From IMG/VR virus record IMGVR_UViG_3300014050_000004, positions 32,001 to 96,000 of that record: 64,000 bases of DNA; one strand, 5' to 3'. Made by a program: the position numbers and the translations under genes. This document shows, one piece after another, positions 5,390 to 47,233 of this stretch. How positions within the stretch are numbered: position 1 is the first letter of the stretch; the number at the start of each line of letters is the position of its first letter. A model generated the notes under the pieces. The model was not told the DNA's origin and did no database searches. It worked only from the letters and a program-made list of their open reading frames with translations. The DNA comes from a virus.

Positions 5390-5390
5390 T

Positions 5391-6620: not shown

Positions 6621-6661
6621 TCAAAGCAAGACTCTATTTCAATTCTACCCTCGAAGAAATC

Positions 6662-6668
6662 GGGTAAA
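6662..6668 (+). promoter_or_regulatory. GGGTAAA candidate late-promoter element
   Basis: Precedes the plus-strand ORF (GTG 6680 or ATG 6695). A divergent variant GGGTAGA lies on the minus strand at 6644-6650, before 6620. Confidence 0.55.
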
Positions 6669-6679
6669 GTTATCAGCAT

Positions 6680-7444: not shown

Positions 7445-7445
7445 G

Positions 7446-8495: not shown

Positions 8496-8527
8496 TTGGA
8501 TAGCGGTTGTAAATGCAATAAGTTAAA

Positions 8528-8534
8528 CTTACCC
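8528..8534 (-). promoter_or_regulatory. GGGTAAG candidate late-promoter element
   Basis: Intergenic, 33 nt upstream of start 8495. Confidence 0.6.
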
Positions 8535-8542
8535 GGAAAACG

Positions 8543-12634: not shown

Positions 12635-12660
12635 TGATGAACATAAAGATTGTAATGATT

Positions 12661-12667
12661 TTTACCC
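12661..12667 (-). promoter_or_regulatory. GGGTAAA candidate late-promoter element
   Basis: Intergenic, 27 nt upstream of start 12634. Confidence 0.65.
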
Positions 12668-12668
12668 C

Positions 12669-17477: not shown

Positions 17478-17535
17478 TTTTTGTCTGCTAAAGAGCTTTA
17501 CATGAGCACAAGGGTGCCCATATTACTTACCCTTT

Positions 17536-17700
17536 TCAGAGATACCTGCTGGCTTCCAAGGTTTCTTCGCTCACTTTGCCTTCCCTTGCTAATTTGTCTG
17601 CTGTATTGAAGGCTAGTGAAGCTTGCTCTTGTTTGTCCGGATCCCTACGAAGTCTCTTGTAGAGATCAATTAGCTCAATGTACTGTTTGTCAGATTCCAT
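17536..17700 (-). CDS. Small helical protein (54 aa), paralog of 19918..20109
   Basis: Below the ORF-track cutoff. MESDKQYIELIDLYKRLRRDPDKQEQASLAFNTADKLAREGKVSEETLEASRYL; overlaps the kinase stop by 11 nt. Confidence 0.7.
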   Translation of the reverse strand: MESDKQYIELIDLYKRLRRDPDKQEQASLAFNTADKLAREGKVSEETLEASRYL

Positions 17701-19051
17701 CGTATAGTGTGTTTATGATTTCCATTGCTTTTTGGTTGGTTAGTTTACCCCAAGCTCCCTTATTATAGAAGCTTTCGGCATTCCGTATACCAGAAGACAT
17801 CACATCTGCTATCTCATTGTCAGACATGCCCATCTCCTTCATGGTCTTTTTGACCCTGTTCAGGTTTGAGTACATCTTTCTTAGATTCGCAGGTTGATCC
17901 TGATCTGGGTAAGAGAGTCCACTCAACGGGAGATTAGCTGCTTGCACGTCTTTGTTCAAGCCGCCAGTAACAACAGAGCCTCTGGGAAGCACCGATGTTT
18001 TGACAATTGCTGACAGAGCCTCTGACAAGGCAGCTCTAGGGTTGTCCTGAGCCAACCCGAAATCCACAAGCTTGCTGGTTCCTTTCAATGGGTCAACTAT
18101 GACATTTCTGCCATGCAAATCGTTGTGAGCTATGCCCATCCTGTGAAGACGCGCTCGAGTTTCCCAGTATATGTCACCTGTTGTCTTTCCGGTGCGTTCT
18201 TTGAGGCCATTTGGAAGTAAGGGAGAGGAAATTTCGAAACCTTTGACCTTCTCCATTGCCACTCTGCCATAGAATGTGTCAATAGAGGCGAAAGTTTCAA
18301 TCCTTCTTTTTGAATCAAGCTCCCCGCAGATGAGACGTGGCCCTATTCCGTTTTCTCCTGCTTTCTTCAAAATGTCTATCTCTTTCTTGCCAAGTTCTCC
18401 TCTCTTGACCACTACATCCCCGTCAAATAGGACACTTCCGAAACCGCCGCTCTTGCCGTTCTTCCCCCTACGCGAATTATTCTCCCAGTCGTAGTCGTCC
18501 TGAACCCCTTTGACAAACTTATCAGGGAAGAAGCTCTCGTCGAAATTCCTAGCTTTTCTCTTTGTCTCTCTCGTTAGAACTCCATCAGGTTTTTGAGTCT
18601 TTTTGAGACCCAAAGCCTCATCAAGAGAGTCCAACTCCCTCTGCAAAACCTTCTCCCTTTCCTGAGCTTTGGCTGTCCCCAACTTGGCATTTTTAGCTTT
18701 TTCTTTTCGAACCTCTTCCTTCCTTTGTTTGGCCCTTTCTATGAGACCTTCCACGTCGTTGCCTATTTCTTTCCGCTCAGAGTCCCCGAGGCGCAATGCC
18801 TTTGCTAGCCCCTGAACCTGAAGCTTCCTGGAGGGAGTGTTGATTGGGTCCTCTCCCTTGAGCATTCTTGACACATCATCTAAGACATCATCATTGGTGC
18901 TCTTCGCTGTCGGAAGAGACACATTGAAAAGACCATTGATGACACTCCTCAAAGACCGAGAGACAGGTCTTGGCAAAGAGGACCTACACGTTGAATTTCT
19001 TGCTATGCATGTTGAACCGCACACCTTACCTTTTATGCACCTTCTCTTCAT
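17690..19051 (-). CDS. Protein-kinase-fold protein with N-terminal 4-Cys module
   Basis: Gly loop GKSGGFGSV, VVVKRG lysine, catalytic loop HNDLHGRNVIV and DFG motif LVDFGLA. N-terminus CIKGKVCGSTCIARNSTC. Confidence 0.85.
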   Translation of the reverse strand: MKRRCIKGKVCGSTCIARNSTCRSSLPRPVSRSLRSVINGLFNVSLPTAKSTNDDVLDDVSRMLKGEDPINTPSRKLQVQGLAKALRLGDSERKEIGNDVEGLIERAKQRKEEVRKEKAKNAKLGTAKAQEREKVLQRELDSLDEALGLKKTQKPDGVLTRETKRKARNFDESFFPDKFVKGVQDDYDWENNSRRGKNGKSGGFGSVLFDGDVVVKRGELGKKEIDILKKAGENGIGPRLICGELDSKRRIETFASIDTFYGRVAMEKVKGFEISSPLLPNGLKERTGKTTGDIYWETRARLHRMGIAHNDLHGRNVIVDPLKGTSKLVDFGLAQDNPRAALSEALSAIVKTSVLPRGSVVTGGLNKDVQAANLPLSGLSYPDQDQPANLRKMYSNLNRVKKTMKEMGMSDNEIADVMSSGIRNAESFYNKGAWGKLTNQKAMEIINTLYDGI

Positions 19052-19060
19052 TCCAGCTCC

Positions 19061-19486
19061 TCAGAAAGTGTCCGATTCGAGCATCTCCGCATATTCAAAT
19101 GCAAGGGATTCCAAAGCAGCTATCCTGTCAGTCAAAGAACTCAGTTTTTCTGAGTAGGATACTTCTTGCCCAGCTGCTAATCTGTGTTCATCATCTTTCT
19201 TCCTTGCGAGATCCTGAACTACCATCTTCGCGTCAATGTCCTCCCTCTCTTTAACCAAATTCTTGATTTCTCTCATTTGATTTTGCAAAGCCTGGAAAGC
19301 TCCCCTCTGCCTCGACAGCTTCATCTTCTCCTGCAGAGCCTCAATCTGTTCGGAAAGCTCTCTGTGTTTTTGTCCCAACACTTCGTATTCGTTGAAGCTT
19401 GCTTTTAGAGTGGATACATGCTCTGGTTCCAAAATGGTGCCTTTTGCATAATCCGTAGGCTTGTAAACCGGTTTCCTTGAACTCAT
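19061..19486 (-). CDS. Coiled-coil hypothetical protein
   Basis: 141 aa with heptad-like E/K/L/Q richness; GGGTAAA 24 nt upstream. Confidence 0.7.
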   Translation of the reverse strand: MSSRKPVYKPTDYAKGTILEPEHVSTLKASFNEYEVLGQKHRELSEQIEALQEKMKLSRQRGAFQALQNQMREIKNLVKEREDIDAKMVVQDLARKKDDEHRLAAGQEVSYSEKLSSLTDRIAALESLAFEYAEMLESDTF

Positions 19487-19500
19487 TGTTAGAAAAGGAT

Positions 19501-19887
19501 TTAATTCATTTTACCCTTTTTCGGAGCTGCCTTGCCAGTGCCAGCCACAGATCCCCAAGATACCAGGATGGGTTTCCCTCCTTTGATGGCCCAACCAAAC
19601 TTTTTTCCCGCTACCGACACAGGTTTGTTGTTCTGGACGGAGGAACCTTGCCCAGATGCTGTTTGTTTCAGCTTTCTCTCTTCATCCGTTTCTTCCCCAA
19701 CTTGTTGGTTCCCGGAACTGTCGACTCTTCTGCACAAGCCCCAAATCATCTTAGTGCCAGGGGGACAAGGGGAACCTGCCGGAGGTTGTTGTACGGGCTG
19801 GGATGTAGCGAAATCCCATTCAAGAACGGTATAGTCTCTACCCTCTACCAATCCATCCACACAAGGTATGTCGAATTGTCCAATCAT
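19501..19887 (-). CDS. Hypothetical protein with CPPG...C motif
   Basis: 128 aa; starts MIGQFD; contains CPPGTKMIWGLC; basic C-terminus. Confidence 0.7.
   Translation of the reverse strand: MIGQFDIPCVDGLVEGRDYTVLEWDFATSQPVQQPPAGSPCPPGTKMIWGLCRRVDSSGNQQVGEETDEERKLKQTASGQGSSVQNNKPVSVAGKKFGWAIKGGKPILVSWGSVAGTGKAAPKKGKMN
19510..19516 (-). promoter_or_regulatory. GGGTAAA candidate late-promoter element
   Basis: 24 nt upstream of ATG 19486; overlaps the last codons of the upstream ORF. Confidence 0.5.
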
Positions 19888-19910
19888 GTTTGTCTCTGCG
19901 TATATACGAT

Positions 19911-19917
19911 CTTACCC
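19911..19917 (-). promoter_or_regulatory. GGGTAAG candidate late-promoter element
   Basis: Immediately after the stop of 19918..20109 and 24 nt upstream of ATG 19887. Confidence 0.6.
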
Positions 19918-20109
19918 TTACAAGTAATCAGAGCCCAATACAATTTCCCTTCTGACATTACCACTTTTCTTGATCTTCATGGCAGCCTTTAGAAATTCGT
20001 TGGCTTCTGGCCCCATGCCTACTCTCCTGGCTTGTTTGTACTTTGCCATCAAAAACATGTACTCTTTTTCTTCGTCGTTCATATCAGAAACCTCTTGAAA
20101 TTTCACCAC
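19918..20109 (-). CDS. Small helical protein, paralog of 17536..17700 (alternative start ATG 20082)
   Basis: EKEYMFLMAKYKQARR...A...A.K....G.V..E...SDYL aligns with the 54-aa protein; overlaps the stop of 20103..20975. Confidence 0.7.
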   Translation of the reverse strand: MVKFQEVSDMNDEEKEYMFLMAKYKQARRVGMGPEANEFLKAAMKIKKSGNVRREIVLGSDYL

Positions 20110-20975
20110 TTGACCTTGTCAGCCCAGTACGCACTTGAGGATGGTCCTTTCTCTATGTTCTTAGCGTGGCGGGCTTGAAAAGACTCTCTCCTGGCCTTGT
20201 ACGCTTCGCTCTCTCCTTCCTTTTTCGGAGAACCCTTGACTCCTTGTTGACCGAACCTTTTTATCTCTTGAGTGCCGCCAGAAGAAACTTCTTCCTTCCC
20301 TCTGTAACAAGCCTTAACTATGTGAGATTTGGTCGGATGGTCAGGAGTTGCCTTAGGTTTGTTGCACTCAAGTTCGTCTTTGTTCACCCTTTCGTAAAAC
20401 TCAGATATAACCTCTTCGGCTCTCTTAATTCTCTCCTTAAGCAACTCTGATTGCTCCTTGTGGAACTTGAATTTTTTGAGTATGAGATTGATCTCGGCTG
20501 CCGGCCCTGATCTACCCCCAAGCTTCTCATACTTCCTTTTGGCTTCTTTCATGGCTTCGTTATGCTCATCAAGCTCTCCTTTCATATTCTTGAGCTTTCT
20601 TGGGCTGATTTTGCCAAGTTGAGTTTGTGGTTTTGTAGGTTGACTCTCTCCTAGCCATTCCCTGGCCTGCTGTTTCGCTTTTTGGAGTGTTAAACCCTCC
20701 TTCTTTTGTTTGCCAACCGTCACAGTATATCGGGCCTGCTTACCGGGTTCTCTTATACCTCCCCCTCCAGTAAATGCATCCTCTGCCATTATAGAGCCAA
20801 CATTGCGACCTTGGTCGTCTTTCACAGAAAACAGCCCAGTCTCCCTCCTTTGAATACTGACGGCGGACCCTTTGCGACAGGTGCCAGCGGTCCCATAGGT
20901 TGTTCCATCCGGGCGCTGGCATCTGGTAAACTCATGCACAGAAGCAAGAATGGAGGGGTTAATGCTTCCAAACAT
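20103..20975 (-). CDS. Modular hypothetical protein (Cys module + coiled coil + basic C-terminal phage domain)
   Basis: N-terminal EFTRCQRPDGTTYGTAGTCRKG; C-terminal PDHPTKSHIVKAC...IKRFGQQG...RRESFQARHAKNI...SAYWADKVKW. Confidence 0.7.
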   Translation of the reverse strand: MFGSINPSILASVHEFTRCQRPDGTTYGTAGTCRKGSAVSIQRRETGLFSVKDDQGRNVGSIMAEDAFTGGGGIREPGKQARYTVTVGKQKKEGLTLQKAKQQAREWLGESQPTKPQTQLGKISPRKLKNMKGELDEHNEAMKEAKRKYEKLGGRSGPAAEINLILKKFKFHKEQSELLKERIKRAEEVISEFYERVNKDELECNKPKATPDHPTKSHIVKACYRGKEEVSSGGTQEIKRFGQQGVKGSPKKEGESEAYKARRESFQARHAKNIEKGPSSSAYWADKVKW

Positions 20976-20978
20976 GGT

Positions 20979-21380
20979 TCAATCTCTGAAACTCAGGTAA
21001 TCTGACACTGAGGAAAGGTTTTGCTTACTCATTGTAATCTTGGCTGCAACCCAGGGCTCCAAATTGTCTTCTGGGGTGATTTGGCTTAGAATTTGCATGA
21101 TGTCTGAAGCCATTGCCCTCAACTCGGACATTGCCATTCGAGCATTCGGCTCAACCTCAACCTCATCCTCTTCATCTTCCCAATCCGAACCCCAGGCCTC
21201 ATCCTCATCGTCATACCCACCCTCTTCTTCTTCAAGGTCATCCCCGAAGAACATGTTAGGGTTGGAGTATGCCGCCCGTGAAGCTAAGGCAGGGGCTACT
21301 ACCATGTAGTCTACGGGGTTTTCTAGACCCTCTGAAAAGGACCTTAAAGAGTCCTCTGAAAAACTTCCCCACTGATTCAT
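20979..21380 (-). CDS. Acidic hypothetical protein, possibly head-internal
   Basis: Start revised to ATG 21380 (ATGA overlap). MNQWGSFSEDSLRSFSEG, a D/E tract, then MAMSELRAM...DNLEPWVAAKIT...VSDYL. Confidence 0.7.
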   Translation of the reverse strand: MNQWGSFSEDSLRSFSEGLENPVDYMVVAPALASRAAYSNPNMFFGDDLEEEEGGYDDEDEAWGSDWEDEEDEVEVEPNARMAMSELRAMASDIMQILSQITPEDNLEPWVAAKITMSKQNLSSVSDYLSFRD

Positions 21381-21904
21381 TTCTTTTTCCGTTTGAGATT
21401 TTTCCAAAGGTCTGCGTCAGCTTCTCTAGCTTTGCCAACCCCTGTTATGAAAGAGTTTACCCTTGCTAAGGCCCACTGTTGAGGAGCTACTCCGGGCCTG
21501 TGACCGGATCTCCAAGCAGCCATACCTCTGTTGTACACCTTTTTCAGTATGCTCAAGGGAATGCCAGATTTCTTAGACTTGTTCTCCAGAGCTTTGATCG
21601 AAGGCTTTTTCTTCTTCATCTCTGCAAACTTATCTTCAAAAGCTGCAGTGGCTTTGGACTTGGGAATGCTTTCATTCCTCTTTCTGAACCTTTTGTCTGA
21701 TTCCCAATCTTTGTACAATTCTTTGGAGCTGACTTTGCCTTCAGAGGCTTTTTTCATGGTTCTTTGAACCTCTCTCTGAGCTATATTTTGCTCCTCCAAA
21801 GTTAACCCTTTCTTATAGCTATCCGGCAAGTTCCTCTCTATGTACTCCGTATTGAATCCTAGAGAGGCTACCCTGGCCCAATCATAGGGGTTTGAGCGCG
21901 TCAT
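21377..21904 (-). CDS. Basic hypothetical protein (widespread viral family, DUF5824-like)
   Basis: C-terminal KSGIPLSILKKVYNRGMAAWRSGHRPGVAPQQWALARVNSFI. Confidence 0.6.
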   Translation of the reverse strand: MTRSNPYDWARVASLGFNTEYIERNLPDSYKKGLTLEEQNIAQREVQRTMKKASEGKVSSKELYKDWESDKRFRKRNESIPKSKATAAFEDKFAEMKKKKPSIKALENKSKKSGIPLSILKKVYNRGMAAWRSGHRPGVAPQQWALARVNSFITGVGKAREADADLWKNLKRKKK

Positions 21905-22235
21905 TAGGGTTCTTTATTTGTACTTTGTAGAATTCCATTTTCAGCTCTTCTACTTTTTCAGACAGCCTATAGAAATCTTCTTTCAAGACATACTTGGTAG
22001 GTAATTCAGCTCTGATGTCGTTGACTGCGTCCTGAACTTTCTGAACATGGAACAGCACCAGGTCGACTTTTTCCTTGCTTTCAGAGAAGATCTTGTCCTC
22101 TCGCTCCTTGGCCTCTTCTCTAACTTTTTCAACCCTTGTGGACCCTTGGCTTTGAAGCCAAAAAGCTCCCCCAACCCCGCTAGCTGCAGCGGTTATGATC
22201 AAAGATGCAATACCCAGTACAATTTCTGGTCCCAT
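21882..22235 (-). CDS. Single-TM coiled-coil membrane protein
   Basis: Hydrophobic N-terminus IVLGIASLIITAAASGVGGAFWL followed by a coiled coil with ELPTKYVLKEDF. Confidence 0.65.
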   Translation of the reverse strand: MGPEIVLGIASLIITAAASGVGGAFWLQSQGSTRVEKVREEAKEREDKIFSESKEKVDLVLFHVQKVQDAVNDIRAELPTKYVLKEDFYRLSEKVEELKMEFYKVQIKNPNDALKPL

Positions 22236-22238
22236 GAC

Positions 22239-23219
22239 TCATTCCCTCCCTGGCAAACCAGATTTTCCTTCTTTCAATCTCTGCTTCACAGATTCTGGGA
22301 GACCTGACTCCCATCCGTTTTTCTTTGCGATGGCAATGATCTTTTTCATTACAAGGTCAGGGTTCTTGGCCCGCCCAACAGAAGACCAAGCGGCACTTAC
22401 ATCTTGAGGACTTGAGATTGGGAAAGACATGCCAGGGCCAGCAAAGTCTCCCTTGACTGAGCCTTTCTGCAATTCTTTTCTCTCCTCCACAGTCCACTCT
22501 CTGAATTCTGGAGTGGGTAAACCAGATTCCCCCTTACCAAGTCTCTCCTTGACGCTTTCTGGCAAACCAGATTCCCATCCGTACTTCTTGGCAATTTTTA
22601 TGATATTCGCCATCACTTTGCGGGGGTCTTTTGCTCTCCCAACAGAAGTCCAAGCTGTTCCCACATCTTCTGGGCTAGCAATGGGGAAAGACATACCAGG
22701 ACCAGCAAATTCTCCCTTCATTTCTCCGCTGTGGAGCTTCTCTCTCTTTTCGGAAGACCACTCTCGGAATTCTCGGTCGAGTTTGGCTTTACAGGAAGAG
22801 CATTTACACTTACCTGGCCCTTCACACTTTGAGGAACACCCTTCTTCGAACACCGCCTGAGGCATCGATAAGAGTTCTGAATCATCAGCAAACTTGTATT
22901 CTTGTTTCTTAATCTCACGGAAAGCAGCAGCCCTGGCCTTCTTTCTACTCATGATTTCTTTCATGACTTCAGGCCCTTCAGCATGCTCGTTCCGATTGCG
23001 GTTGATTAAGCCAGCCCTCTTTTCTCGGGCTTTACGATTCATCTCCAGGATCGACTCATTGTGGTAGGTTAGATTTCCGTCCTCATCCGTCCTCCACTTT
23101 TTGCCGGATTTGTTCATTTCTGCTAATTTGTCTGAAGAAATTGCTGTAGCAGCGTTGATAGCTCCCCCAACCCCTGGCAGAGTCACTGAAGAAAAGTTGA
23201 GGTTGGGTATGTCCATCAC
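22239..23219 (-). CDS. Hypothetical protein with Cys cluster and duplicated domain (DUF6582-like)
   Basis: CSSKCEGPGKCKCSSC followed by two 88-aa repeats; GGGTAAA 21-24 nt upstream. Confidence 0.7.
   Translation of the reverse strand: MMDIPNLNFSSVTLPGVGGAINAATAISSDKLAEMNKSGKKWRTDEDGNLTYHNESILEMNRKAREKRAGLINRNRNEHAEGPEVMKEIMSRKKARAAAFREIKKQEYKFADDSELLSMPQAVFEEGCSSKCEGPGKCKCSSCKAKLDREFREWSSEKREKLHSGEMKGEFAGPGMSFPIASPEDVGTAWTSVGRAKDPRKVMANIIKIAKKYGWESGLPESVKERLGKGESGLPTPEFREWTVEERKELQKGSVKGDFAGPGMSFPISSPQDVSAAWSSVGRAKNPDLVMKKIIAIAKKNGWESGLPESVKQRLKEGKSGLPGRE
22245..22772 (-). repeat. Coding tandem duplication with a 264-nt period
   Basis: EFREWSSEKREKL...GEFAGPGMSFPIASPEDV...WESGLPESVKERL and EFREWTVEERKEL...GDFAGPGMSFPISSPQDV...WESGLPESVKQRL. 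Confidence 0.9.
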
Positions 23220-23239
23220 AGAGAATTTGGCTGTTAAGT

Positions 23240-23246
23240 TTTACCC
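23240..23246 (-). promoter_or_regulatory. GGGTAAA candidate late-promoter element
   Basis: Intergenic, 21-24 nt upstream of starts 23219/23216. Confidence 0.65.
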
Positions 23247-23253
23247 TGTTACT

Positions 23254-23565
23254 TTAGGGGTTTGCTTCATTATTGTCTTGTTGTGGTGTTTCCTTGCGCT
23301 TTCTGCTTTGTCCTAGAGCTGTTACAGACCCTTGAGAAGCAGAAGGAACAAGCAATGCCAGCAAAGTGGCAAGTGCAACCTTGCCGGTCTCACTGAGAGA
23401 GGAAGCAGCGTTGTTACACACGAGAGTGACCTTTTCAGACTCTTTTGAGGACTGAATTGCCGAGTGGCAGGAGAACATTTGGTACCCCACGGTCACAAAT
23501 TGAACCACGAAGATACTCACAAGAGCCCTAATCAGGAATGCTCTCTCATTGAACTGATTCAGCAT
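23254..23565 (-). CDS. Two-TM membrane protein (holin candidate)
   Basis: Hydrophobic segments FLIRALVSIFVVQFVTVGY and VALATLLALLV; charged C-terminal tail. Confidence 0.5.
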   Translation of the reverse strand: MLNQFNERAFLIRALVSIFVVQFVTVGYQMFSCHSAIQSSKESEKVTLVCNNAASSLSETGKVALATLLALLVPSASQGSVTALGQSRKRKETPQQDNNEANP

Positions 23566-23590
23566 CTGAGTAAAATTGAGTACCTAGGAG

Positions 23591-23597
23591 TTTACCC
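23591..23597 (-). promoter_or_regulatory. GGGTAAA candidate late-promoter element
   Basis: Directly after the stop at 23598 and 26 nt upstream of ATG 23565. Confidence 0.65.
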
Positions 23598-24134
23598 TCA
23601 AACCTCATCCATCAGTTCTGCGATGATGTTATCAATCTCAGAATCACCCCCTTCTGCTTCATCGGATGCGAGATCATCTTCAAGAATGTCAAGAAGATCT
23701 TCAAGCTCATCCACCGTTATGTCAATGTCAGCCTCATCTTCCATATCTTCTTCAAACTCATCGGATCGGGACTCAAGAATACCTTCTAGCAATAGCTCAA
23801 GTTCTTGATCTTCCTCGTCATATTCCTCCTCTTCTCCCTCAAGAATGTCATCAAGCAACAGCTCAAGTTCCTCCTCTGTGAGTTCCTCCTCTTCTTCACC
23901 TTGAGCTTGAATTACCAGGCTCTGGTTGGCTTGAAACAAAGGGTCATTTCCAGGGTTAGCCTTCCACAAGCCTGTGTGTTGAATCCAGGGAGAGGTATTG
24001 ATGACGGTGTCAGTGGGTAACCCAGTGTATTCGTCGATCTCAATGTCCTCAGGGACTTGCAAACTCTGGGCGTAAGCCATCCTGAAAGCTTCAATGGATT
24101 CGGTGTCAAAATCCCCGTTGATTCTGTTAACCAT
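23598..24134 (-). CDS. Highly acidic scaffold-like protein
   Basis: Start revised to ATG 24134 (MVNRINGDFDTESIEAF), 28 nt below GGGTAAG. Repeated E/D-rich amphipathic helices (EELELLLDDILE, ELEDLLDILE, EIDNIIAELMDE). Confidence 0.7.
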   Translation of the reverse strand: MVNRINGDFDTESIEAFRMAYAQSLQVPEDIEIDEYTGLPTDTVINTSPWIQHTGLWKANPGNDPLFQANQSLVIQAQGEEEEELTEEELELLLDDILEGEEEEYDEEDQELELLLEGILESRSDEFEEDMEDEADIDITVDELEDLLDILEDDLASDEAEGGDSEIDNIIAELMDEV

Positions 24135-24161
24135 GGTTGAGAAGTAAAGTTTCAGTGTAAA

Positions 24162-24168
24162 CTTACCC
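24162..24168 (-). promoter_or_regulatory. GGGTAAG candidate late-promoter element
   Basis: Overlaps the stop of 24163..24405; 28 nt upstream of ATG 24134. Confidence 0.6.
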
Positions 24169-24405
24169 TTTATCCCTCCATCCAGACATCTTTCCAGACA
24201 CATCTTGCAAAAGCTTAGAGTTGCCTTGAAGGTTGCCTGTGGAACTTTCTTCAAAGGTGGGACTTACAGTCTCCGAAAGCTTGTCTAGCAATGCCCCGTG
24301 TTCTTTATTAACAGCCCTTCTACACACCCGGTCGGCTGACACGAGCAAGGGTCCGCAAGGCACAAGACCTTGACTTTCTATGGACAATTTGACATTCTTC
24401 GTCAT
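24163..24405 (-). CDS. Hypothetical protein
   Basis: 80 aa; ATGA overlap with the upstream gene. Confidence 0.55.
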   Translation of the reverse strand: MTKNVKLSIESQGLVPCGPLLVSADRVCRRAVNKEHGALLDKLSETVSPTFEESSTGNLQGNSKLLQDVSGKMSGWRDKG

Positions 24406-24737
24406 GCGGATGTCCTATCTGGGTTGTGCCAAGTGTTCAGGTAGTCGGGATAATGAGAGTTCATTTTGCGTTCTAACCGAGGTTTAACATCTTCTTTGTT
24501 GCTTTCTCTCATCCCAGCAATAACTGCATCTCTCATTTTTCTAAGATCTTCTCTTGGAACGTTGCAATGAGGGCTGTCCCTGTAAGTGCGGAACCACCTG
24601 CAGACCTCGGAAGGGTCGTCTGACTGAAGCATCATGTTCCAAACAACGGTAGCCTGAGAATCCTTGAATATGCCGGATGGCAATCTGGCCTCCAGATCTT
24701 CTCTACTTGGGCGTTTGAAGCGTGTGTCTCTCCTCAT
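24402..24737 (-). CDS. Hypothetical protein immediately downstream of the HNH gene
   Basis: 111 aa; starts 2 nt after the HNH gene stop. Confidence 0.65.
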   Translation of the reverse strand: MRRDTRFKRPSREDLEARLPSGIFKDSQATVVWNMMLQSDDPSEVCRWFRTYRDSPHCNVPREDLRKMRDAVIAGMRESNKEDVKPRLERKMNSHYPDYLNTWHNPDRTSA

Positions 24738-24738
24738 G

Positions 24739-26208
24739 TTACAACAAATTGTCTAGGTTGGGGACAAATTCCCTCAGCACTTGAGACAAATCATCACCAT
24801 ATTCGCTACTCTTCTGCTTCTGCAGGGCGAGCCTTGCGCTATTATTTCCTCTCACCGACATTGCCTCCTCGTCGGTCAAAATGCGAGCTTTTCTTAGGTC
24901 TTCCAGTTGTCCAATAAGTTGTTGTTTTTTCGAGGGGTCGACTGCTGCCAAAGCAATGAGAACGGCAGTACTCGGTTTAACTTTGGTTCCTGGCAAGGTT
25001 GGGACTCCATTGTTCATGAAAGCTGGCTTGCCTCCCATCCTGTGGTCAAGGTCTCTGTCTTGGTGCTGCCAACCCACCCCTGCCGCTCTTATCAAGTACC
25101 TTACCTTGTCACCGTAAGACTCAACAAGTTTCTTGGTATTTGCAACTCTTTCCTCGGGCGTGATGCTTGACAAAGCTTGGGACAATTCTCCAGGAGCTTG
25201 AGCCTTCTTGCCTTTCGTCGCCGCCGCCGACTCCGTAGCCGGATTGTACACCTGGTTGTTGTACTCTTCCCTTCCCATTTTCTGATACTTTTCAAGGGAT
25301 TGTTTCCACTTGGTAAAGTTGTCATCGGCTCCAGCCTTCTGGTTGTTTGGTTGAGCGGCTGCCCAGAGGAGGTTCCTTGGCTGGTCTCCGCCACCACCTT
25401 TCGCCAAAGCGTGTGCAAACGCCACCATGTGTTCCGGTTCGGCATTTCTGATGTCAATTGGCTTCCCAGTGTAGGGGTCTAGCCCACCTTGTTCCATCCA
25501 TCTTTTGACAAGGAACACACCCCTTGCTTTTGTCGGCTTACTTGAAAAGGTCGGATTACCTTTCTCGTCGTCCCCCGCATACATTACGCCTTCGCCCTTC
25601 ACAGCCCCAGCTTTGTCAATCGCAGATCTAACCTTTGCTGGCAACATGTTGTAGGCTGCTACAGCTACGGAGTCAGAGATTTCATTTTTGAGGTATTCAT
25701 TTTTGATGAGATCTCCCATACCTCCCTTTGCAGAAGGGTCAAACTTTCCTTCTTTTGAGAAAGAGGCCTGGTAAGCCTTCTCAAGGCTCTCCAGCTTCCC
25801 TGGCTTCAAAGCTGCTTCAATTTCATCGAAACTCATGACCCTTGGGGCATTCCTGTCTTGCCCGGGAGTTACGATCGTGCTGATGAGGAGGTTGGCAACT
25901 GAGTCAAGCTCTGTGTCCGAGGTTTTACCGGTATCAACCAGTTTCTTGAACAAGTCAAAAGCTTTCTGTTGGGAAGGCTCAATGTCCTTCAACTTTGAGA
26001 CCACTTCTTCAGCAGTTCCTTCCGACACTGAGCCTTGCTCCACCCGCTCAGACAGCAATTTAGAAACTTTTGAGATTGCCAAGCCTAAGGAAGGTGGCAA
26101 ATCTACCACACATTGATTGTTACGGTATATGCATGTAGCTCCGCAAGACTTCCCCTTGGTGCACTTGTCTTTTGAAGAAGGACTTTGGAAGTCGAACCAA
26201 TGAACCAT
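24739..26208 (-). CDS. HNH-type endonuclease with N-terminal 4-Cys module
   Basis: Likely start ATG 26208 (MVHWFDF); CTKGKSCGATCIYRNNQC; HNH core WMEQGGLDPYTGKPID...EPEHMVAF...DQPRNLLWAAAQPNNQK. Confidence 0.7.
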   Translation of the reverse strand: MVHWFDFQSPSSKDKCTKGKSCGATCIYRNNQCVVDLPPSLGLAISKVSKLLSERVEQGSVSEGTAEEVVSKLKDIEPSQQKAFDLFKKLVDTGKTSDTELDSVANLLISTIVTPGQDRNAPRVMSFDEIEAALKPGKLESLEKAYQASFSKEGKFDPSAKGGMGDLIKNEYLKNEISDSVAVAAYNMLPAKVRSAIDKAGAVKGEGVMYAGDDEKGNPTFSSKPTKARGVFLVKRWMEQGGLDPYTGKPIDIRNAEPEHMVAFAHALAKGGGGDQPRNLLWAAAQPNNQKAGADDNFTKWKQSLEKYQKMGREEYNNQVYNPATESAAATKGKKAQAPGELSQALSSITPEERVANTKKLVESYGDKVRYLIRAAGVGWQHQDRDLDHRMGGKPAFMNNGVPTLPGTKVKPSTAVLIALAAVDPSKKQQLIGQLEDLRKARILTDEEAMSVRGNNSARLALQKQKSSEYGDDLSQVLREFVPNLDNLL

Positions 26209-26231
26209 TTTTGCACGCATCAATACAAAAG

Positions 26232-26265
26232 TTTACCCTTTCACAAATTAAGAGAGTCGGGTAAA
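26232..26265. promoter_or_regulatory. Divergent pair of GGGTAAA elements
   Basis: Minus-strand copy at 26232-26238 (24 nt before ATG 26208) and plus-strand copy at 26259-26265 (26 nt before the phoH ATG at 26291). Confidence 0.7.
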
Positions 26266-26290
26266 AACAGGGCAGAGTTGTCCTTAAGCT

Positions 26291-27118: not shown

Positions 27119-27122
27119 AATG

Positions 27123-27150
27123 AAAGGAGGGCTTACCACCCTCCTTTTTC
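27123..27150 (+). terminator. Rho-independent terminator (probably bidirectional)
   Basis: AAAGGAGGG-CTTACCA-CCCTCCTTT followed by TTC-TTT, between convergent genes. Confidence 0.8.
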
Positions 27151-44068: not shown

Positions 44069-44075
44069 TTTACCC
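44069..44075 (-). promoter_or_regulatory. GGGTAAA candidate late-promoter element
   Basis: At the stop of 44075..44737; 73 nt upstream of 43996. Confidence 0.55.
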
Positions 44076-44737: not shown

Positions 44738-47233
44738 TCACTTGTTTCCGTTGTTCCAGAGGCAAATCTTGATAGCCTCAACATAATCAGCGGCTTCCCC
44801 ATTAGCAACCATCTTGAGCGCCTTCTCATGTGGATCCATCTCTTCTGGTTCCTCTGGGATAGAAGCCTCTGAGACAACTTCGCCGAAATAAACCATGTTT
44901 GGCAATCTTCGAAGCATCTCAAACAACCTTGAGGTTGGGGTTTCACCTTCTGAGAAGTTAAGAGTCCCAAATTCGAGACCTTCGCAGTAGTTCTGAAGCT
45001 CTCTTTGAGGGATGATCCCATCAGTGAGCTTGCCTTCCACGTACAAACTGTCAATGAACTCGGCAATTTTTTCTTTGCGAGCTCTGATCTTGTGCTCCTC
45101 GTATTCTCTTCTCAGCTTGTCATTTTCGGCCTTGAGAGACTTCAATTCCTCAAACATGGCTTCCGGATACCCGACTGGCTTGGCTTGAGACATAGACCCC
45201 ATGCCACAGAACTCTTCGGTCTCGGAGAATTCCTCCTCTTCTGCAATCTGAGCCATAACGGAATCCACCAGAGCTTCGATGTCTTCCTCCGAGAAGTCTT
45301 CTCCTTCCTCTTCTCCTTCCTCTTCCTCCTCCATCACAGGGGATCTTTGCCCATAGGTGGAACCTTTACCGGTCTTTGACAGAGTGTCTTTGACTCTCTC
45401 TTTGTGCTCCAGGGAAGCCTCTTCTCCGGATCGCTGGCGAATGATTCTTACCTTGTCGCTTTCGGTTGCGTTTTCGAGGTCAACAGCCAGCTCCATGGTA
45501 TCAGGATCTTCCTCAGATCGATCAGGGAACTCGGTAGGACCGTCGTCTCTGCCTCTTGGGTCTGTACCATCAGAAACTTTAGCCTTCCTTGGGGTATCAG
45601 TCAGACCGTCAGCGTCTCCTTCAGCGAAATCTCCAATTGGACCTCCCTTAACCGGTGCTCTTTCGTCACCGGAGGACTGGTGAATGACCCGAGCAACTTT
45701 GTTGCCCTTTGTGCTTTCAAGGGGCACAGCAATGTCCTCATCATGGGGCTCTTCCTCCATGTCCTCCGAGACCTCTGTGGGACCACCGTCTCTACCATGA
45801 GGTTCCTTGCCTTCTGAAGTCCCAGCATCTCTGGCAAATCCCTCATTCCCGACATTGTATTGATCGGAATTTGTTGCTCTCATTCTGGCTTCGGGTTGGT
45901 CGGCCCAACGTGCCTCTTCATCCCCTCCGTCTTCCGTGTCTCTGCCAATGCTCGCTCTGCTTACCTCTTCTTCAGAGTTGCGAGCTGTGTTTTTTCTATC
46001 CTGGTCTTGTCTGCCAGAATCCTTGGAAACATTGGTTCTGCCGTCAGATTCACCCTTGCCAATTTTCTGCCTGTCACCGAAACTGTCATCCTTGGACCTT
46101 CCAGTCAGACCCCTTCCAGCCACGTCCTCCATTCTTTCTGGCTCATGGGTGCCGAACTTAACCTTGCCACCTTCTACTGTTTTATGAGAAACTCTCTCAG
46201 AAAACTCGTCCTCAATTTCATCGAGTTGGGACAGCAGGGAATCTACAAGGTTGTCAATGTCATCTTCGGAGAATTCCCCGTCTTCTTGTTCCATGTCCAT
46301 GTCCATCTCACTCTCGACCTTTTTCTTCGGCTTGCTCTTCGCTCTGAGCTTGTGAGACTTTGCCTTAGGCTTAGGCTCTGCGGGGACTTCCTCAAACACC
46401 TCTTCAACAACCTGAACTTCGTGTCCGTGAGCTCCTTTGGCTGTTTTGCGTTCTGTCCTCTCCTCGTACTGGTCGTCTGGAAGCATGGTTTCCATGTTAG
46501 CTGTGGTCTGGGCGGATTCTGAAGCTTCAGATCCTTCTCGCCCCATTTTCTTTTTCATTTCAAGAAAGTTTTGGTAAGGGTTTTCTGGGGCGGAGCTGTC
46601 CGCCTCGGGAATTGTTTCTTCTGGAGATACATCTGTCTCTTGCTGTGTTTCCTGGTTTTCCTTGAGTTCCGACAAAGACGACGAGATGTCTCCCCTTATC
46701 AACTCAAGTTTCTCTCTCAGAGTCTCCAAAGGTCCTTTATCGGCCACCAAAGAAGGTCCTAATTCTTTGTCAAATAACTGATCAGGAGTCAAGTTTGTGG
46801 CAAAGTTGAACACTCCTTCTTCTTCTGAGAAGGAGAAAGGTTCCAGCCCTTTAACGGCTGGGGGAGCAGCTCCAAGTAAGGCCAAATGTCTGGCGCTCCA
46901 TTGACCTTTGTGAGGGTTGATGCCCGACTCAGGCGAGTAGAAGGATATAGAAACTTTTTTGTAGTGGCCATTTTTCACCAGATCTTTAGCAGTATCCGTG
47001 AAATCTACATCGGCGTAGAGGTCATCTCCCCTTCTTTCAAAACCTTTGATCCACCCATATGAGGGTATACCGTCACTGTCACCAGAATGACCTATGACTA
47101 AAGGTGCTTCGTGAACATCAGGGTCGTAGGAATCAACAACCTCTTGCAGATCTTCACGAGAAAAGTGTCTTTCTACCCCATTGGCAGAAGTTTGGGGGCC
47201 TGACTTAAATACATGCAAACGTTTTGTAAACAC
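44738..47233 (-). CDS. Prohead protease-scaffold fusion (Mu gpI-like)
   Basis: FSREDLQEVVDSYDP..HEAPLVIGH...YGWI...DLYADVDF...YKKVSISFY...RHLALLGAAPPAVKGL, followed by a ~650-aa acidic/coiled scaffold. Confidence 0.88.
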   Translation of the reverse strand: MFTKRLHVFKSGPQTSANGVERHFSREDLQEVVDSYDPDVHEAPLVIGHSGDSDGIPSYGWIKGFERRGDDLYADVDFTDTAKDLVKNGHYKKVSISFYSPESGINPHKGQWSARHLALLGAAPPAVKGLEPFSFSEEEGVFNFATNLTPDQLFDKELGPSLVADKGPLETLREKLELIRGDISSSLSELKENQETQQETDVSPEETIPEADSSAPENPYQNFLEMKKKMGREGSEASESAQTTANMETMLPDDQYEERTERKTAKGAHGHEVQVVEEVFEEVPAEPKPKAKSHKLRAKSKPKKKVESEMDMDMEQEDGEFSEDDIDNLVDSLLSQLDEIEDEFSERVSHKTVEGGKVKFGTHEPERMEDVAGRGLTGRSKDDSFGDRQKIGKGESDGRTNVSKDSGRQDQDRKNTARNSEEEVSRASIGRDTEDGGDEEARWADQPEARMRATNSDQYNVGNEGFARDAGTSEGKEPHGRDGGPTEVSEDMEEEPHDEDIAVPLESTKGNKVARVIHQSSGDERAPVKGGPIGDFAEGDADGLTDTPRKAKVSDGTDPRGRDDGPTEFPDRSEEDPDTMELAVDLENATESDKVRIIRQRSGEEASLEHKERVKDTLSKTGKGSTYGQRSPVMEEEEEGEEEGEDFSEEDIEALVDSVMAQIAEEEEFSETEEFCGMGSMSQAKPVGYPEAMFEELKSLKAENDKLRREYEEHKIRARKEKIAEFIDSLYVEGKLTDGIIPQRELQNYCEGLEFGTLNFSEGETPTSRLFEMLRRLPNMVYFGEVVSEASIPEEPEEMDPHEKALKMVANGEAADYVEAIKICLWNNGNK

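What the first reader, a model, noticed from the sequence alone, without database searches (positions are those of the whole stretch)
17536..26208. Accessory block that looks like a modular, late-expressed, possibly virion-packaged effector system
Seen: about 15 co-directional genes between the tail fibres and phoH, most with their own upstream GGGTAA element, as the structural genes have. They reuse small parts: 4-Cys modules, an N-terminal G-x-F-[DS] tag, F-[SA]-E motifs, scaffold-like acidic helices and very basic tails. Two carry enzymatic domains (kinase, HNH). Established: large phages package internal head proteins and inject host-takeover enzymes (T4 IPI-III and Alt), and MuF polymorphic toxins pair a shared N-terminal module with variable toxic ends. 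Inference: this is a MuF-independent cargo/effector locus with its own targeting code. I do not know of a description of this architecture.
Basis: partly seen in the sequence, partly recalled or inferred. Interest (0 to 1): 0.8.

Follow-up and report, generated by a model that had tools for sequence, protein, structure and literature searches.

The report
Phage cargo enzymes sharing address tags
An uncultured freshwater relative of cyanophage S-CBWM1 puts the same short N-terminal tags on unrelated enzymes (kinases, a nuclease, an ADP-ribosyltransferase, an NMNAT-like enzyme). The tagged counterparts in S-CBWM1 were reported inside virions, so the tags are probably a new packaging address for injected proteins.

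Summary
Window 17536-26208 carries 15 co-directional genes between the tail fibres and phoH/TerL, and the block is syntenic in S-CBWM1 and seven IMG/VR relatives.

- **4-Cys module.** C-x2-G-x2-C-x3-C-I-x5-C heads the kinase and the probable HNH protein.
- **2-Cys module.** DFTRC-x-RP[DN]G-x2-YGT-x-G-x-C[KR]KG heads g290.
- **Leader.** An acidic leader (M-x-G-x-F-S-E...) heads several others.
- **Promoter-like element.** GGGTAAA lies 24-44 nt upstream of 7 block genes and 76 nt upstream of an eighth. It also precedes the portal, protease, sheath and fibre genes.

The system is wider than the block. Eight more 2-Cys copies and a third 4-Cys kinase lie outside the window, on an ART, an NMNAT-like enzyme, kinases and basic proteins. 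Metagenomes hold more than 570 such proteins (2-Cys) and 572 clusters (4-Cys), including polyproteins punctuated by the modules.

G-x-F-[SA]-E recurs 4-7 times in the Mu-type prohead protease-scaffold. This suggests a cleavage or targeting motif like the T4 capsid targeting sequence (CTS).

In S-CBWM1 the module-bearing kinases and NMNAT were reported in virions. The g494 ortholog is annotated "virion structural protein".

Verdict: a probable virion-cargo family with a new, clade-specific address code. Packaging in this phage is inferred, not shown. Other first-stage notes on this genome flagged the same motifs.

The parts
24739..26208 (-). g494 (489 aa from ATG 26208; an ATG at 26220 is also open). 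It has a WFDF leader, a 4-Cys module, a helical region, a probable Cas9-like HNH motif (EPEH..N..W..NN) and a helical C-terminus.
   Evidence: It is 48% identical over 481 aa to the S-CBWM1 528-aa 'virion structural protein'. Its family profile hits the Cas9 HNH domain 6o56 at E 0.019. PF01844 is found in 4 of 25 relatives. The AF2 model has pLDDT 79. BFVD matches are the S-CBWM1 virion protein (TM 0.73) and the S-TIM5 'virion structural protein and packaging'.
26110..26163 (-). 4-Cys module of g494: CTKGKSCGATCIYRNNQC
24402..24737 (-). g111, a conserved small protein (ortholog of S-CBWM1 gp107). It has no tag.
   Evidence: (E 8.5e-18).
24163..24405 (-). g80, a small 2-Cys protein conserved in relatives.
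   Evidence: E 1e-8 to 3e-12 in L004-L010.
23598..24134 (-). g178ac, a very acidic protein (pI 4.1) with the leader MVNRINGDFDTESIEAF.
   Evidence: It is the ortholog of S-CBWM1 gp108.
23254..23565 (-). g103, a predicted membrane protein (ortholog of S-CBWM1 gp109).
   Evidence: The hydrophobic segment was read directly from the sequence.
22239..23216 (-). g326. It has the leader MDIPNLNFSS, a Cys cluster (C-x3-C-x5-C-x-C-x2-C) and two repeats of an ~85-aa domain. Relatives have one or two repeats; S-CBWM1 gp111 has none.
   Evidence: There is a weak DUF6582 hit.
21882..22235 (-). g117, with an N-terminal transmembrane helix plus a coiled coil (ortholog of S-CBWM1 gp112).
21377..21904 (-). g175, a basic protein with a C-terminal DUF5824 domain. 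The same domain ends the 'cytidyltransferase' proteins of other marine myoviruses.
   Evidence: PF19141, E 1.8e-23; phrog_3041; HTVC008M residues 507-594.
20979..21380 (-). g132ac, an acidic protein (pI 4.1) with the leader MNQWGSFSEDSLRSFSEG. Its start overlaps the g175 stop (ATGA).
20103..20975 (-). g290. It has a short leader, the 2-Cys module, a beta domain, a long helical hairpin and a phrog_7595 C-terminal domain. In relatives the N-terminal and C-terminal parts are separate genes.
   Evidence: In the AF2 model the module is a three-strand beta meander with pLDDT ~90.
20868..20930 (-). 2-Cys module of g290: FTRCQRPDGTTYGTAGTCRKG
19918..20109 (-). g63, a small helical protein. It is a paralog of g54.
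19501..19887 (-). g128, with the leader MIGQFD, three Cys and a basic tail.
19061..19486 (-). g141, a coiled-coil protein.
17690..19051 (-). g453. The 4-Cys module sits at the extreme N-terminus, followed by a ~200-aa linker and a protein kinase. Kinase motifs present: GGFGSV, VVVKRG, HNDLHGRN, DFG.
   Evidence: 30% identity to the S-CBWM1 RIO-like kinase, E 6e-16.
18986..19039 (-). 4-Cys module of g453: CIKGKVCGSTCIARNSTC
17536..17700 (-). g54, a small helical protein (ortholog of S-CBWM1 gp114).
   Evidence: The LPD26 hit (E 0.18) is not significant.
26233..26238 (-). GGGTAA element 24 nt upstream of the g494 ATG at 26208. Further copies on this strand lie at 24163-24168, 23592-23597, 23241-23246, 21457-21462, 19912-19917, 19511-19516, 17745-17750 and 17527-17532.
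44738..47233 (-). Prohead protease fused to a scaffold-like acidic extension (831 aa, Mu gpI type). It holds 7 F[SA]E motifs, two of them in the full leader-like form (GEFSEDDIDNLV, EDFSEEDIEALV).

Best explanation
The block is one part of a genome-wide family of late proteins that are loaded into the prohead and probably ejected into the host with the DNA.

Each cargo carries a short N-terminal address, of which there are two interchangeable modules:
- a 4-Cys module, C-x2-G-x2-C-x3-C-I-x5-C followed by [LF]-P;
- a 2-Cys beta-meander module, DFTRC-x-RP[DN]G-x2-YGT-x-G-x-C[KR]KG.

The module is often preceded by an acidic leader, M-x-G-x-F-S-x-E-x-L ... F-S-E. This leader copies a motif repeated in the scaffold part of the Mu-type prohead protease.

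Inferred mechanism:
1. The leader takes the cargo into the scaffolding core.
2. The prohead protease cuts after F-[SA]-E. This parallels T4 gp21, which cuts after hydrophobic-x-Glu (from my memory).
3. The basic Cys module then sits at the mature N-terminus, where it holds the protein on the packaged DNA or portal.

Cargo in the window:
- a protein kinase (g453);
- a probable HNH nuclease (g494);
- proteins with DUF5824 or phrog_7595 domains;
- acidic and basic non-enzymatic proteins.

Cargo outside the window: two more kinases, an ADP-ribosyltransferase and an NMNAT-like nucleotidyltransferase.

Shown here: the modules, their shuffling among proteins, their distribution, and the promoter-like element shared with structural genes.
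From the literature: the S-CBWM1 counterparts are found in virions.
Inferred: packaging in this phage, cleavage at F-S-E, ejection, and the role of each module.
For: 1. MODULE SHUFFLING.
- The 4-Cys module heads g494, g453, a third kinase at contig 13996-14766, and an unrelated 228-aa protein in L007/L008.
- The 2-Cys module heads g290 plus eight further copies, on an ART (PF01129, E 7e-13), an APH-like kinase, a CTP_transf-like enzyme and basic coiled-coil proteins.
- The two halves of g290 are separate genes in L004-L007.

2. BREADTH.
- 570 proteins carry the 2-Cys module. Pfam partners among the top 120 are CTP_transf 12, ART 5, DUF6496 5 and kinases ~6.
- The exhaustive HMM search finds 572 clusters with the 4-Cys module.
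- These include 1.4-3.6 kaa polyproteins with 3-6 modules separating LRAT, hydrolase, GNAT, DnaJ and HipA-like domains.
- The consensus of 120 2-Cys proteins is MxGxFSxExL...FSExxxYDFTRC....
- 98 of 165 modules have [FY][SAT]E within 16 aa upstream.

3. LINK TO HEAD ASSEMBLY.
- F[SA]E occurs 7 times in the 831-aa protease-scaffold, against ~0.45 expected.
- It occurs 4-6 times in the relatives' versions and twice in the S-CBWM1 version.
- The extended leader pattern hits 5 N-termini and 2 scaffold sites, against 0.23 expected.

4. VIRION EVIDENCE IN THE NEAREST ISOLATE.
- PMC10665884 and PMC9602691 cite virion proteomics that found the APH, ChoK and Rio2 kinases and the NMNAT in S-CBWM1.
- All four carry a module. 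Two of them carry it upstream of the annotated start.
- The PknB-like kinase has no module and is not listed as found in virions.
- The g494 ortholog is annotated 'virion structural protein', and its S-TIM5 relative likewise.

5. CO-REGULATION. GGGTAAA lies 24-44 nt upstream of block genes, of second-locus cargo genes, and of the portal, protease, sheath and fibre genes. It is conserved in relatives.

6. CLADE RESTRICTION.
- Among 50,697 isolate records, only S-CBWM1 has either module.
- The 147 IMG/VR stretches lie almost all in phages that share TerL, RNR and the sigma factor with this one.
- This fits a handle that needs a cognate partner in the virion.
Against: - There is no direct evidence for this phage. 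It is an uncultured contig.
- The S-CBWM1 proteomics is second-hand, because the primary paper is not held. Mass spectrometry of CsCl-purified virions can also pick up abundant contaminants, as PMC9602691 itself notes.
- The 4-Cys kinases start directly at M-K-K-R-C with no leader, so leader and module may do different jobs.
- No cleavage site has been mapped, and the specificity of Mu-type proteases is unknown to me.
- AF2 gives the 4-Cys region low confidence.
- Several block genes have no tag, and two look like membrane proteins.
- A Cys-rich protein with 10 copies of the 4-Cys pattern and a C-terminal hydrophobic segment (P0241) shows the pattern can be a generic mini-domain.
- The leader statistic is post hoc.
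Confidence: 0.6

Rival explanations
1. The Cys modules are working domains of the enzymes, not packaging addresses. They could be small metal-binding or disulfide-stapled knuckles that bind DNA, RNA or a common host target. On this reading, any virion loading depends only on the acidic leader, or on other contacts.
For: - The modules are basic and are followed by basic helices.
- The 2-Cys module folds as a confident small beta meander.
- The 4-Cys pattern also occurs ten times in a Cys-rich protein with a C-terminal hydrophobic segment (P0241).
- The 4-Cys kinases lack the leader.
Against: - The modules sit on enzymes with unrelated chemistries, and on non-enzymatic basic and helical proteins.
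- They are confined to one phage clade.
- They track the S-CBWM1 proteins reported in virions.
- A general substrate-binding domain would be expected in other phages and in cells.
Confidence: 0.2
2. There is no system. The block is an ordinary mix of late accessory, morphogenesis and lysis-related genes. The shared motifs reflect paralog expansion and domain shuffling within one phage lineage.
For: - Seven of the 15 block genes carry no tag.
- g103 and g117 look like membrane proteins.
- The acidic proteins resemble the scaffold only in composition.
- The block's content varies among relatives.
Against: - The modules are kept at the protein level across hundreds of diverged proteins with unrelated C-termini.
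- They punctuate polyproteins at domain borders.
- The leader motif is shared with the protease-scaffold.
Confidence: 0.12
3. g494 is an HNH partner of the terminase used in DNA packaging, as in HK97-like phages. The kinases act only inside the infected cell, and the S-CBWM1 virion detections are carry-over.
For: - g494 lies next to phoH and TerL.
- HNH-like motif.
- PMC9602691 cautions that non-structural proteins may remain after CsCl purification.
Against: - The true S-CBWM1 ortholog lies next to the major head protein, not the terminase, and is annotated as a virion protein.
- g494 is about 490 aa with an N-terminal tag, unlike the ~100-aa terminase-associated HNH proteins (from my memory of Kala et al. 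2014).
- S-TIM5 relatives are also annotated as virion proteins.
- Three different kinases and the NMNAT were all detected in virions.
Confidence: 0.08

Closest known systems
T4 internal proteins IPI-III and Alt with the capsid targeting sequence (CTS)
   Same: Diverse cargo shares only a short N-terminal address that takes it into the scaffolding core (PMC3012670). An ART is among the cargo. The address is associated with a prohead-protease motif ending in Glu. The cargo genes are late genes near structural genes.
   Different: There is no sequence similarity. The protease here is Mu gpI type (PF10123), not T4 gp21. The address is longer and has two parts: an acidic leader plus a folded 2-Cys or 4-Cys module that probably stays on the mature protein. 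The motif is F-[SA]-E rather than L/I-x-E (the T4 motif is from my memory). Cleavage has not been shown.
Virion-associated kinases and NMNAT-like proteins of cyanomyoviruses (S-CBWM1, S-TIM5, S-CRM01, S-SCSM1)
   Same: These are the same protein families, and for S-CBWM1 they are true orthologs. They were detected in purified virions (PMC10665884 and PMC9602691).
   Different: Those papers, as far as I could read them, describe the enzymes one by one. They do not describe a shared N-terminal module or leader. In the S-CBWM1 record, two kinase starts are annotated downstream of the module.
Polyvalent proteins and MuF-fused polymorphic effectors (Iyer et al. 2017, PMC5512222; Iyer et al. 2022, PMC9503650)
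   Same: Many interchangeable effector domains (ART, kinase, GNAT, peptidase-like) are predicted to be head-packaged and injected. Metagenomic relatives here are true multi-domain polyproteins. The cassette-like variation is also shared.
   Different: No block protein has a MuF, portal or LPD domain. The paper does not mention cysteine modules or cyanophages. Here most effectors are separate genes, each with its own tag, and in the polyproteins the tag recurs at each domain border.
Ejection and inner-body proteins of phiKZ-like phages (SPN3US gp245 substrates)
   Same: Many head-internal proteins carry N-terminal propeptides that the prohead protease removes at a short P3-P1 motif. Long propeptides contain several such motifs (PMC10052503).
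   Different: The phage lineage, protease family and motif all differ. No Cys modules are described there.

Membership tests
CTS-type head cargo (works like T4 IPs/Alt) | A short conserved N-terminal address shared by otherwise unrelated proteins | tested here: met
   The leader and Cys modules are shared by kinases, HNH-like, ART, NMNAT-like and non-enzymatic proteins. This is an analogy only; there is no homology to the T4 CTS.
CTS-type head cargo (works like T4 IPs/Alt) | Removal of the address by the prohead protease at a consensus site | not testable with these tools
   Support is indirect only. G-x-F-[SA]-E is enriched in the protease-scaffold of this phage and its relatives.
CTS-type head cargo (works like T4 IPs/Alt) | Presence in purified virions | tested here: inconclusive
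   This cannot be tested for this uncultured phage. S-CBWM1 orthologs are reported in virions by two citing papers and in the record's annotation. The primary paper is not held.
CTS-type head cargo (works like T4 IPs/Alt) | Ejection into the host | not testable with these tools
   No data.
MuF polymorphic toxins | An N-terminal MuF (PF04233) domain fused to the variable C-terminus | tested here: not met
   Pfam scans of all block proteins find no MuF domain.
Polyvalent proteins (Iyer 2017) | 2-15 effector domains in one polypeptide, with LPD-type linker domains | tested here: not met
   Window proteins have one effector domain each. The only LPD hit is LPD26 at E 0.18. Metagenomic relatives with 3-6 modules do fit the multi-domain criterion.
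Protein kinase superfamily (g453) | Gly-rich loop, VAIK Lys, HxD..N catalytic loop, DFG | tested here: met
   GGFGSV, VVVKRG, HNDLHGRN and DFGLA are read from the sequence. Pkinase scores E 7e-6, at 26 bits, below the 31.7-bit cut-off. It is 30% identical to the S-CBWM1 RIO-like kinase.
HNH (beta-beta-alpha-Me) nuclease (g494) | [DE]-H ... N ... N/H motif in a beta-beta-alpha fold | tested here: inconclusive
   The motif EPEH..NLLW..NNQK is present. The family profile hits the Cas9 HNH domain 6o56 at E 0.019. PF01844 is found in 4 of 25 relatives, best E 0.007. Whole-model fold searches gave no HNH match.
Mu gpI-type prohead protease (window 44738-47233) | Match to PF10123 above its cut-off, in a portal - protease - major head gene order | tested here: met
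   PF10123 scores 28 bits against a 25.2-bit cut-off. phrog_976 scores E 1.6e-62 and the gene order matches.

The most novel reading that the evidence does not exclude
The acidic G-x-F-S-E leader and the 2-Cys or 4-Cys module together form a previously undescribed, clade-specific capsid-loading and ejection code. Any protein that carries it is packed into the head and delivered to the host. The same code also marks the cut points of giant multi-effector polyproteins, which are then released as separately tagged effectors.
Probability: 0.45. Interest if true: 0.8.

Novelty: new variant of a known kind. Interest (0 to 1): 0.7.

Why it matters
Head-packaged, injected enzymes are known in detail almost only for T4, P1, N4 and the phiKZ group.

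If the reading holds, a large uncultured clade of freshwater and estuarine cyanophages has its own address system. That system would explain why kinases and NMNAT keep turning up in cyanophage virion proteomes. It would also let cargo be predicted from sequence alone; hundreds of candidates are already visible.

The repertoire suggests what the phage does to a cyanobacterium in the first minutes of infection: phosphorylation, ADP-ribosylation, NAD metabolism and DNA cutting.

The code would be directly testable in a cultured phage (S-CBWM1). It might also be usable to load foreign proteins into capsids, as the T4 CTS is.

Finally, it corrects gene starts in a reference genome.

Tried and rejected
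- **Similarity of acidic proteins to the scaffold.** g178ac and g132ac were compared with the scaffold region. Similarity is significant only without composition correction (E 1e-5 becomes 0.06), so I treat it as composition, not homology.
- **Fold searches, g494 model.** Foldseek against PDB gave nothing at E <= 0.001. VIA wide gave Z <= 5.6, mostly helical segments, plus a weak HMG-box-like match to residues 39-99. There is no structural support for HNH.
- **Fold searches, g290 model.** Only helical-hairpin look-alikes were found.
- **Pfam and PHROGs on small block genes.** Nothing was found for g111, g80, g103 or g63. The LPD26 hit for g54 is not significant.
- **MuF check.** The 220-aa head gene (44075-44737) has a C-terminal Cys pattern that reminded me of MuF, but Pfam gave no hit.
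- **Promoters and terminators.** Sigma-70 promoter-like and terminator-like sites in 12-30 kb are not more frequent than in shuffles.
- **Near-identical DNA in isolate phages.** None found.
- **Metatranscriptome.** Run X5 holds contigs over most of the block, at contig depths of 4-18. Depths are 0-4.5 over parts of the fibre gene and TerL, while DNA runs are flat. This is only a weak hint of transcription: contigs cannot show strand, ends or level, and DNA carry-over is possible.
- **Tools or sources not available.** The primary S-CBWM1 paper is not held.

Full report
**What the window is.** The window is bases 32001-96000 of a 118,465-bp IMG/VR viral contig. The contig comes from freshwater metagenomes. 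Its large terminase is 58% identical to that of Synechococcus phage S-CBWM1 (Aokuangvirus), the only close isolate. No near-identical DNA exists among 50,697 phage records.

On the minus strand the gene order is as follows:
- DNA polymerase, tail sheath and portal;
- an 831-aa prohead protease with a long acidic extension, and the major head protein;
- baseplate genes, the head-tail adaptor and TerL;
- phoH, on the plus strand;
- the block under study;
- two giant tail-fibre/baseplate proteins.

The block is therefore embedded in the morphogenesis region.

**The observation.** Fifteen minus-strand ORFs fill 17536-26208. S-CBWM1 has the same arrangement, TerL - phoH - gp106..gp115 - 1573-aa baseplate protein. 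Eight block proteins have recognisable S-CBWM1 counterparts. Seven IMG/VR relatives (L004-L010) keep the order with 35-73% identity, including the small overlapping g80.

The two largest proteins share an N-terminal 4-Cys module. g453 (kinase) and g494 align at 44% identity over 36 aa, E 8e-6. The module consensus is C-x2-G-x2-C-x3-C-I-x5-C-x3-[LF]-P.

g290 carries a different module: FTRC-x-RPDG-x2-YGT-x-G-x-C-RKG.

Leaders of the form G-x-F-[SD] open three proteins: g132ac (MNQWGSFSEDSLRSFSEG), g128 (MIGQFD) and g178ac (..NGDFDTESIEAF). g494 (WFDF) and g326 (LNFS) have variants. All are conserved in orthologs.

Two proteins are very acidic (pI 4.1) and most of the others are basic (pI 9-10).

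g453 has all the kinase motifs, with Pkinase at E 7e-6. The HNH call for g494 is weaker:
- the family profile's three best PDB hits are Cas9 HNH domains, best E 0.019;
- PF01844 is found in 4 of 25 relatives;
- fold searches did not confirm it.

**The GGGTAA element.** The window holds 42 copies against 23 +/- 4.7 expected. On the whole contig there are 48 on the gene strand and 22 on the other. Thirty of the 48 lie 9-100 nt upstream of a start, where about 5 would fall by chance (my count).

The element precedes these genes:
- portal (39 nt upstream), protease (26), sheath (95), both fibre genes (27 and 49) and a minor tail gene (33);
- eight block genes: g494, g178ac, g103, g326, g128 and g141 at 24-28 nt, g54 at 44 nt and g132ac at 76 nt;
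- cargo genes outside the window.

In L004, L006, L007 and S-CBWM1, GGGTAAA sits 24-32 nt upstream of the orthologous genes. Sigma-70-type promoters are not enriched. The contig encodes a sigma factor (PF04542).

I read the element as a late-promoter candidate shared by structural and block genes. This is an inference; no transcript ends are available.

"Most" block genes having the element is an overstatement, since only 8 of 15 do. With ATG 26208 as the g494 start, the spacing is the typical 24 nt. The database also holds the protein from that start (P0121).

**The system is larger than the block.** A six-frame scan of the whole contig finds nine 2-Cys modules and three 4-Cys modules, all on the gene strand. 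Eight of the 2-Cys copies lie at contig 2.1-11.5 kb, outside the window. They sit on the following proteins:

| Protein | Content after the module |
|---|---|
| 258 aa | basic coiled coil |
| 522 aa | CTP_transf/NMNAT-like enzyme (two modules) |
| 190 aa | no Pfam-scanned domain |
| 338 aa | ADP-ribosyltransferase (PF01129, E 7e-13) |
| 268 aa | APH-like kinase |
| 416 aa | basic protein |
| 344 aa | no Pfam-scanned domain |

A 256-aa kinase at contig 13996-14766 opens with the 4-Cys module.

Relatives shuffle the parts:
- L007/L008 have a 228-aa 4-Cys protein with an unrelated C-terminus.
- L006 has a 240-aa 2-Cys protein, and a 657-aa kinase with an extra insert after the module.
- The two halves of g290 are separate genes in L004-L007.

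**Distribution.** A profile of the 2-Cys module finds 570 proteins at E <= 0.01. Among the best 120:
- 43 have two or three modules;
- 66 open with G-x-F-[SDTN];
- 98 of 165 modules have [FY][SAT]E within 16 residues upstream;
- the majority consensus is MxGxFSxExL...FSExxxYDFTRCVRPDGSAYGTxGKCRKGxE;
- Pfam partners are CTP_transf (12), ARTs (5), DUF6496 (5) and several kinase families, while most have no Pfam domain.

In multi-domain members the module, preceded by [DN]FSE, sits at each domain border.

The 4-Cys profile finds 224 proteins by the word-indexed search and 572 clusters by the exhaustive search. Partners include kinases, ARTs, the g494 family and small proteins. There are also 1.4-3.6 kaa polyproteins with 3-6 modules between LRAT-like, alpha/beta-hydrolase, GNAT, DnaJ and HipA-like domains.

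Among isolate phages, only S-CBWM1 has either module. In IMG/VR the 2-Cys module occurs in 147 stretches. Nearly all of these loci also carry close homologs of this phage's TerL, ribonucleotide reductase or sigma factor. The 2-Cys system is therefore specific to this clade, which is well represented in metagenomes.

**Link to head assembly.** The 831-aa protein at 44738-47233 is a Mu gpI-type protease (PF10123 above its cut-off; phrog_976) with a ~530-aa acidic extension. It contains seven F[SA]E motifs where about 0.45 are expected. The whole proteome has 30 against 18 expected, and the excess sits in this protein and in tagged N-termini.

Relatives' versions have 4-6 copies, typically G-x-F-[AS]-E-[EGD], and the S-CBWM1 version has two. 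One C-terminal site (FGTL-x-F-[SA]-EGE) is conserved in all.

An extended leader pattern hits eight places in the proteome against 0.23 expected. Five are N-termini of tagged late proteins and two lie inside the scaffold extension (GEFSEDDIDNLV, EDFSEEDIEALV). The last is in a fibre protein and is probably chance. The pattern was chosen after seeing the sequences, so the number is only indicative.

The major head protein has no such motif.

By analogy with T4, I infer that G-x-F-[SA]-E marks entry into the core, cleavage by the prohead protease, or both. In T4 a shared CTS takes diverse internal proteins into the scaffolding core (PMC3012670). In SPN3US, prohead-protease motifs recur inside propeptides (PMC10052503). 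This step has not been tested.

[quoted passage not shown] PMC9602691 independently repeats the NMNAT result.

I checked these S-CBWM1 genes:
- The APH-like kinase opens MSGKKCTRGKSCGSAC.
- The ChoK-like and RIO-like kinases have the full 4-Cys module in frame just upstream of their annotated starts.
- The NMNAT has the 2-Cys module at residues 20-45.
- The PknB-like kinase has no module and is not listed as a virion protein.

The true ortholog of g494 is not gp106. It is the 528-aa protein next to the major head gene (48% identity over 481 aa), which is annotated "virion structural protein". The structure-based search agrees (TM 0.73). That search also finds the S-TIM5 "virion structural protein and packaging" and the large "cytidyltransferase" proteins of T4-like cyanophages.

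g175's DUF5824 domain is the C-terminal domain of such a "cytidyltransferase" in Pelagibacter phage HTVC008M.

So the domains that other marine myoviruses fuse into one large virion protein are here separate genes, each with its own tag.

**What the modules look like.** With a 123-sequence alignment, AF2 models the 2-Cys module of g290 as a three-strand beta meander at pLDDT ~90. The 4-Cys region of g494 stays below pLDDT 50 with a 25-sequence alignment.

Both modules are basic. The 4-Cys module occurs in two settings:
- at the very N-terminus (M-K-K-R-C...);
- after a 20-75-aa leader ending in ..A-V-G-G-x2-K-[KR].

If that leader is removed, all members would start alike.

**Most likely mechanism, and what remains inferred.**
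- Shown: the tags exist, are conserved, and are exchanged among unrelated proteins. They share a promoter-like element with structural genes. Part of the tag is repeated in the protease-scaffold.
- From the literature: tagged orthologs are found in virions.
- Inferred: the leader takes cargo into the prohead core and is cut at F-[SA]-E; the Cys module stays on the mature protein and holds it on DNA or the portal; the cargo is ejected and acts early on the host through phosphorylation, ADP-ribosylation, NAD metabolism and DNA cleavage.

I put this at about 0.6. Three rivals remain, detailed in their own sections: the modules are working domains rather than addresses (0.2), there is no system (0.12), and g494 is a terminase helper with the proteomics showing carry-over (0.08).

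**Comparison and novelty.** Functionally this resembles the T4 CTS/IP/Alt system and phiKZ-type ejection proteins. In repertoire it resembles the polyvalent and MuF-fused effectors. It is a member of none of them:
- no block protein has a MuF or LPD domain;
- the protease family differs;
- the polyvalent-protein paper mentions neither cysteine modules nor cyanophages, and the NAD-ADPr survey does not mention cyanophages or any cysteine module either.

Virion-associated kinases and NMNAT in this group are already published. The shared address code, its link to the protease-scaffold and its spread appear to be undescribed. I could not read Xu et al. 2018 to be sure. I therefore class this as a new variant of a known kind.

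Other first-stage notes on this same genome had flagged the 2-Cys, 4-Cys, leader and GGGTAA motifs. I reached the first, second and fourth before reading them. I used the leader wording from one note to build the test.

**Limits.**
- The phage is uncultured.
- The proteomics is second-hand.
- The metatranscriptome run gives only a weak hint that the block is transcribed.

Noticed in passing
contig 2124-15239 (outside the window, = window -29876 to -16761; locus L011): A second and larger cargo locus. It holds eight 2-Cys modules and one 4-Cys module, on an ART, an NMNAT-like enzyme, two kinases and basic coiled-coil proteins. Interleaved with them are a UvrD-like helicase, a C39-like peptidase, two DUF6496 proteins and a sigma factor.
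   Followed up: partly
S-CBWM1 NC_048106.1: 70398-70463 and about 117843-117896 (L001 26741-26806; L014 17837-17896): The annotated starts of the RIO-like and ChoK-like kinase genes lie downstream of an in-frame ATG that adds the complete 4-Cys module. The reference annotation probably truncates both proteins.
   Followed up: partly
window 26224-27148: phoH is on the plus strand here, but it is co-directional with TerL and g494 in S-CBWM1 and in all seven relatives. The 67-bp gap holds two divergent GGGTAA elements: 26233-26238 (minus strand) and 26259-26264 (plus strand, 26 nt before the phoH ATG). A strong terminator-like hairpin follows phoH at 27122-27148.
   Followed up: partly
window 44075-44737: The 220-aa head-module protein after the protease ends in C-x2-C ... 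CRC-x4-CRC. This reminded me of the C-terminus of MuF/SPP1 gp7 proteins, but Pfam finds nothing. If it is a MuF relative, the phrase 'MuF-independent' would need care.
   Followed up: partly
window 21377-21380: The g175 stop and the g132ac start overlap as ATGA, which suggests translational coupling. g453 starts 9 nt after the g141 stop, behind a GGAG, and has no GGGTAA of its own.
   Followed up: no
window 17536-17700 and 19918-20109: g54 and g63 are weak paralogs (E 0.026). Both resemble S-CBWM1 gp114. L006 has one copy that is closer to g63.
   Followed up: no
protein P0241 (metagenome, 527 aa): A Cys-rich protein with a C-terminal hydrophobic segment repeats the C-x2-G-x-x-C-G-x2-C-I-x5-C pattern ten times. 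The 4-Cys motif may derive from, or converge on, a generic small disulfide or metal mini-domain.
   Followed up: no
window 21882-22235 and 23254-23565: g117 (transmembrane helix plus coiled coil) and g103 (one or two hydrophobic helices) are conserved in S-CBWM1 (gp112, gp109). They look like membrane proteins rather than cargo, and a lysis or assembly role is possible.
   Followed up: no
metagenomic polyproteins P0001, P0016, P0030, P0035, P0044: A recurrent ~120-aa domain lies between 2-Cys modules (..F.F.VNG.[FY]D.G.I.DR.....A..V.R........P.G......A...DG......R..AY.R.GF). It ends like a GNAT fold, but Pfam does not recognise it.
   Followed up: no
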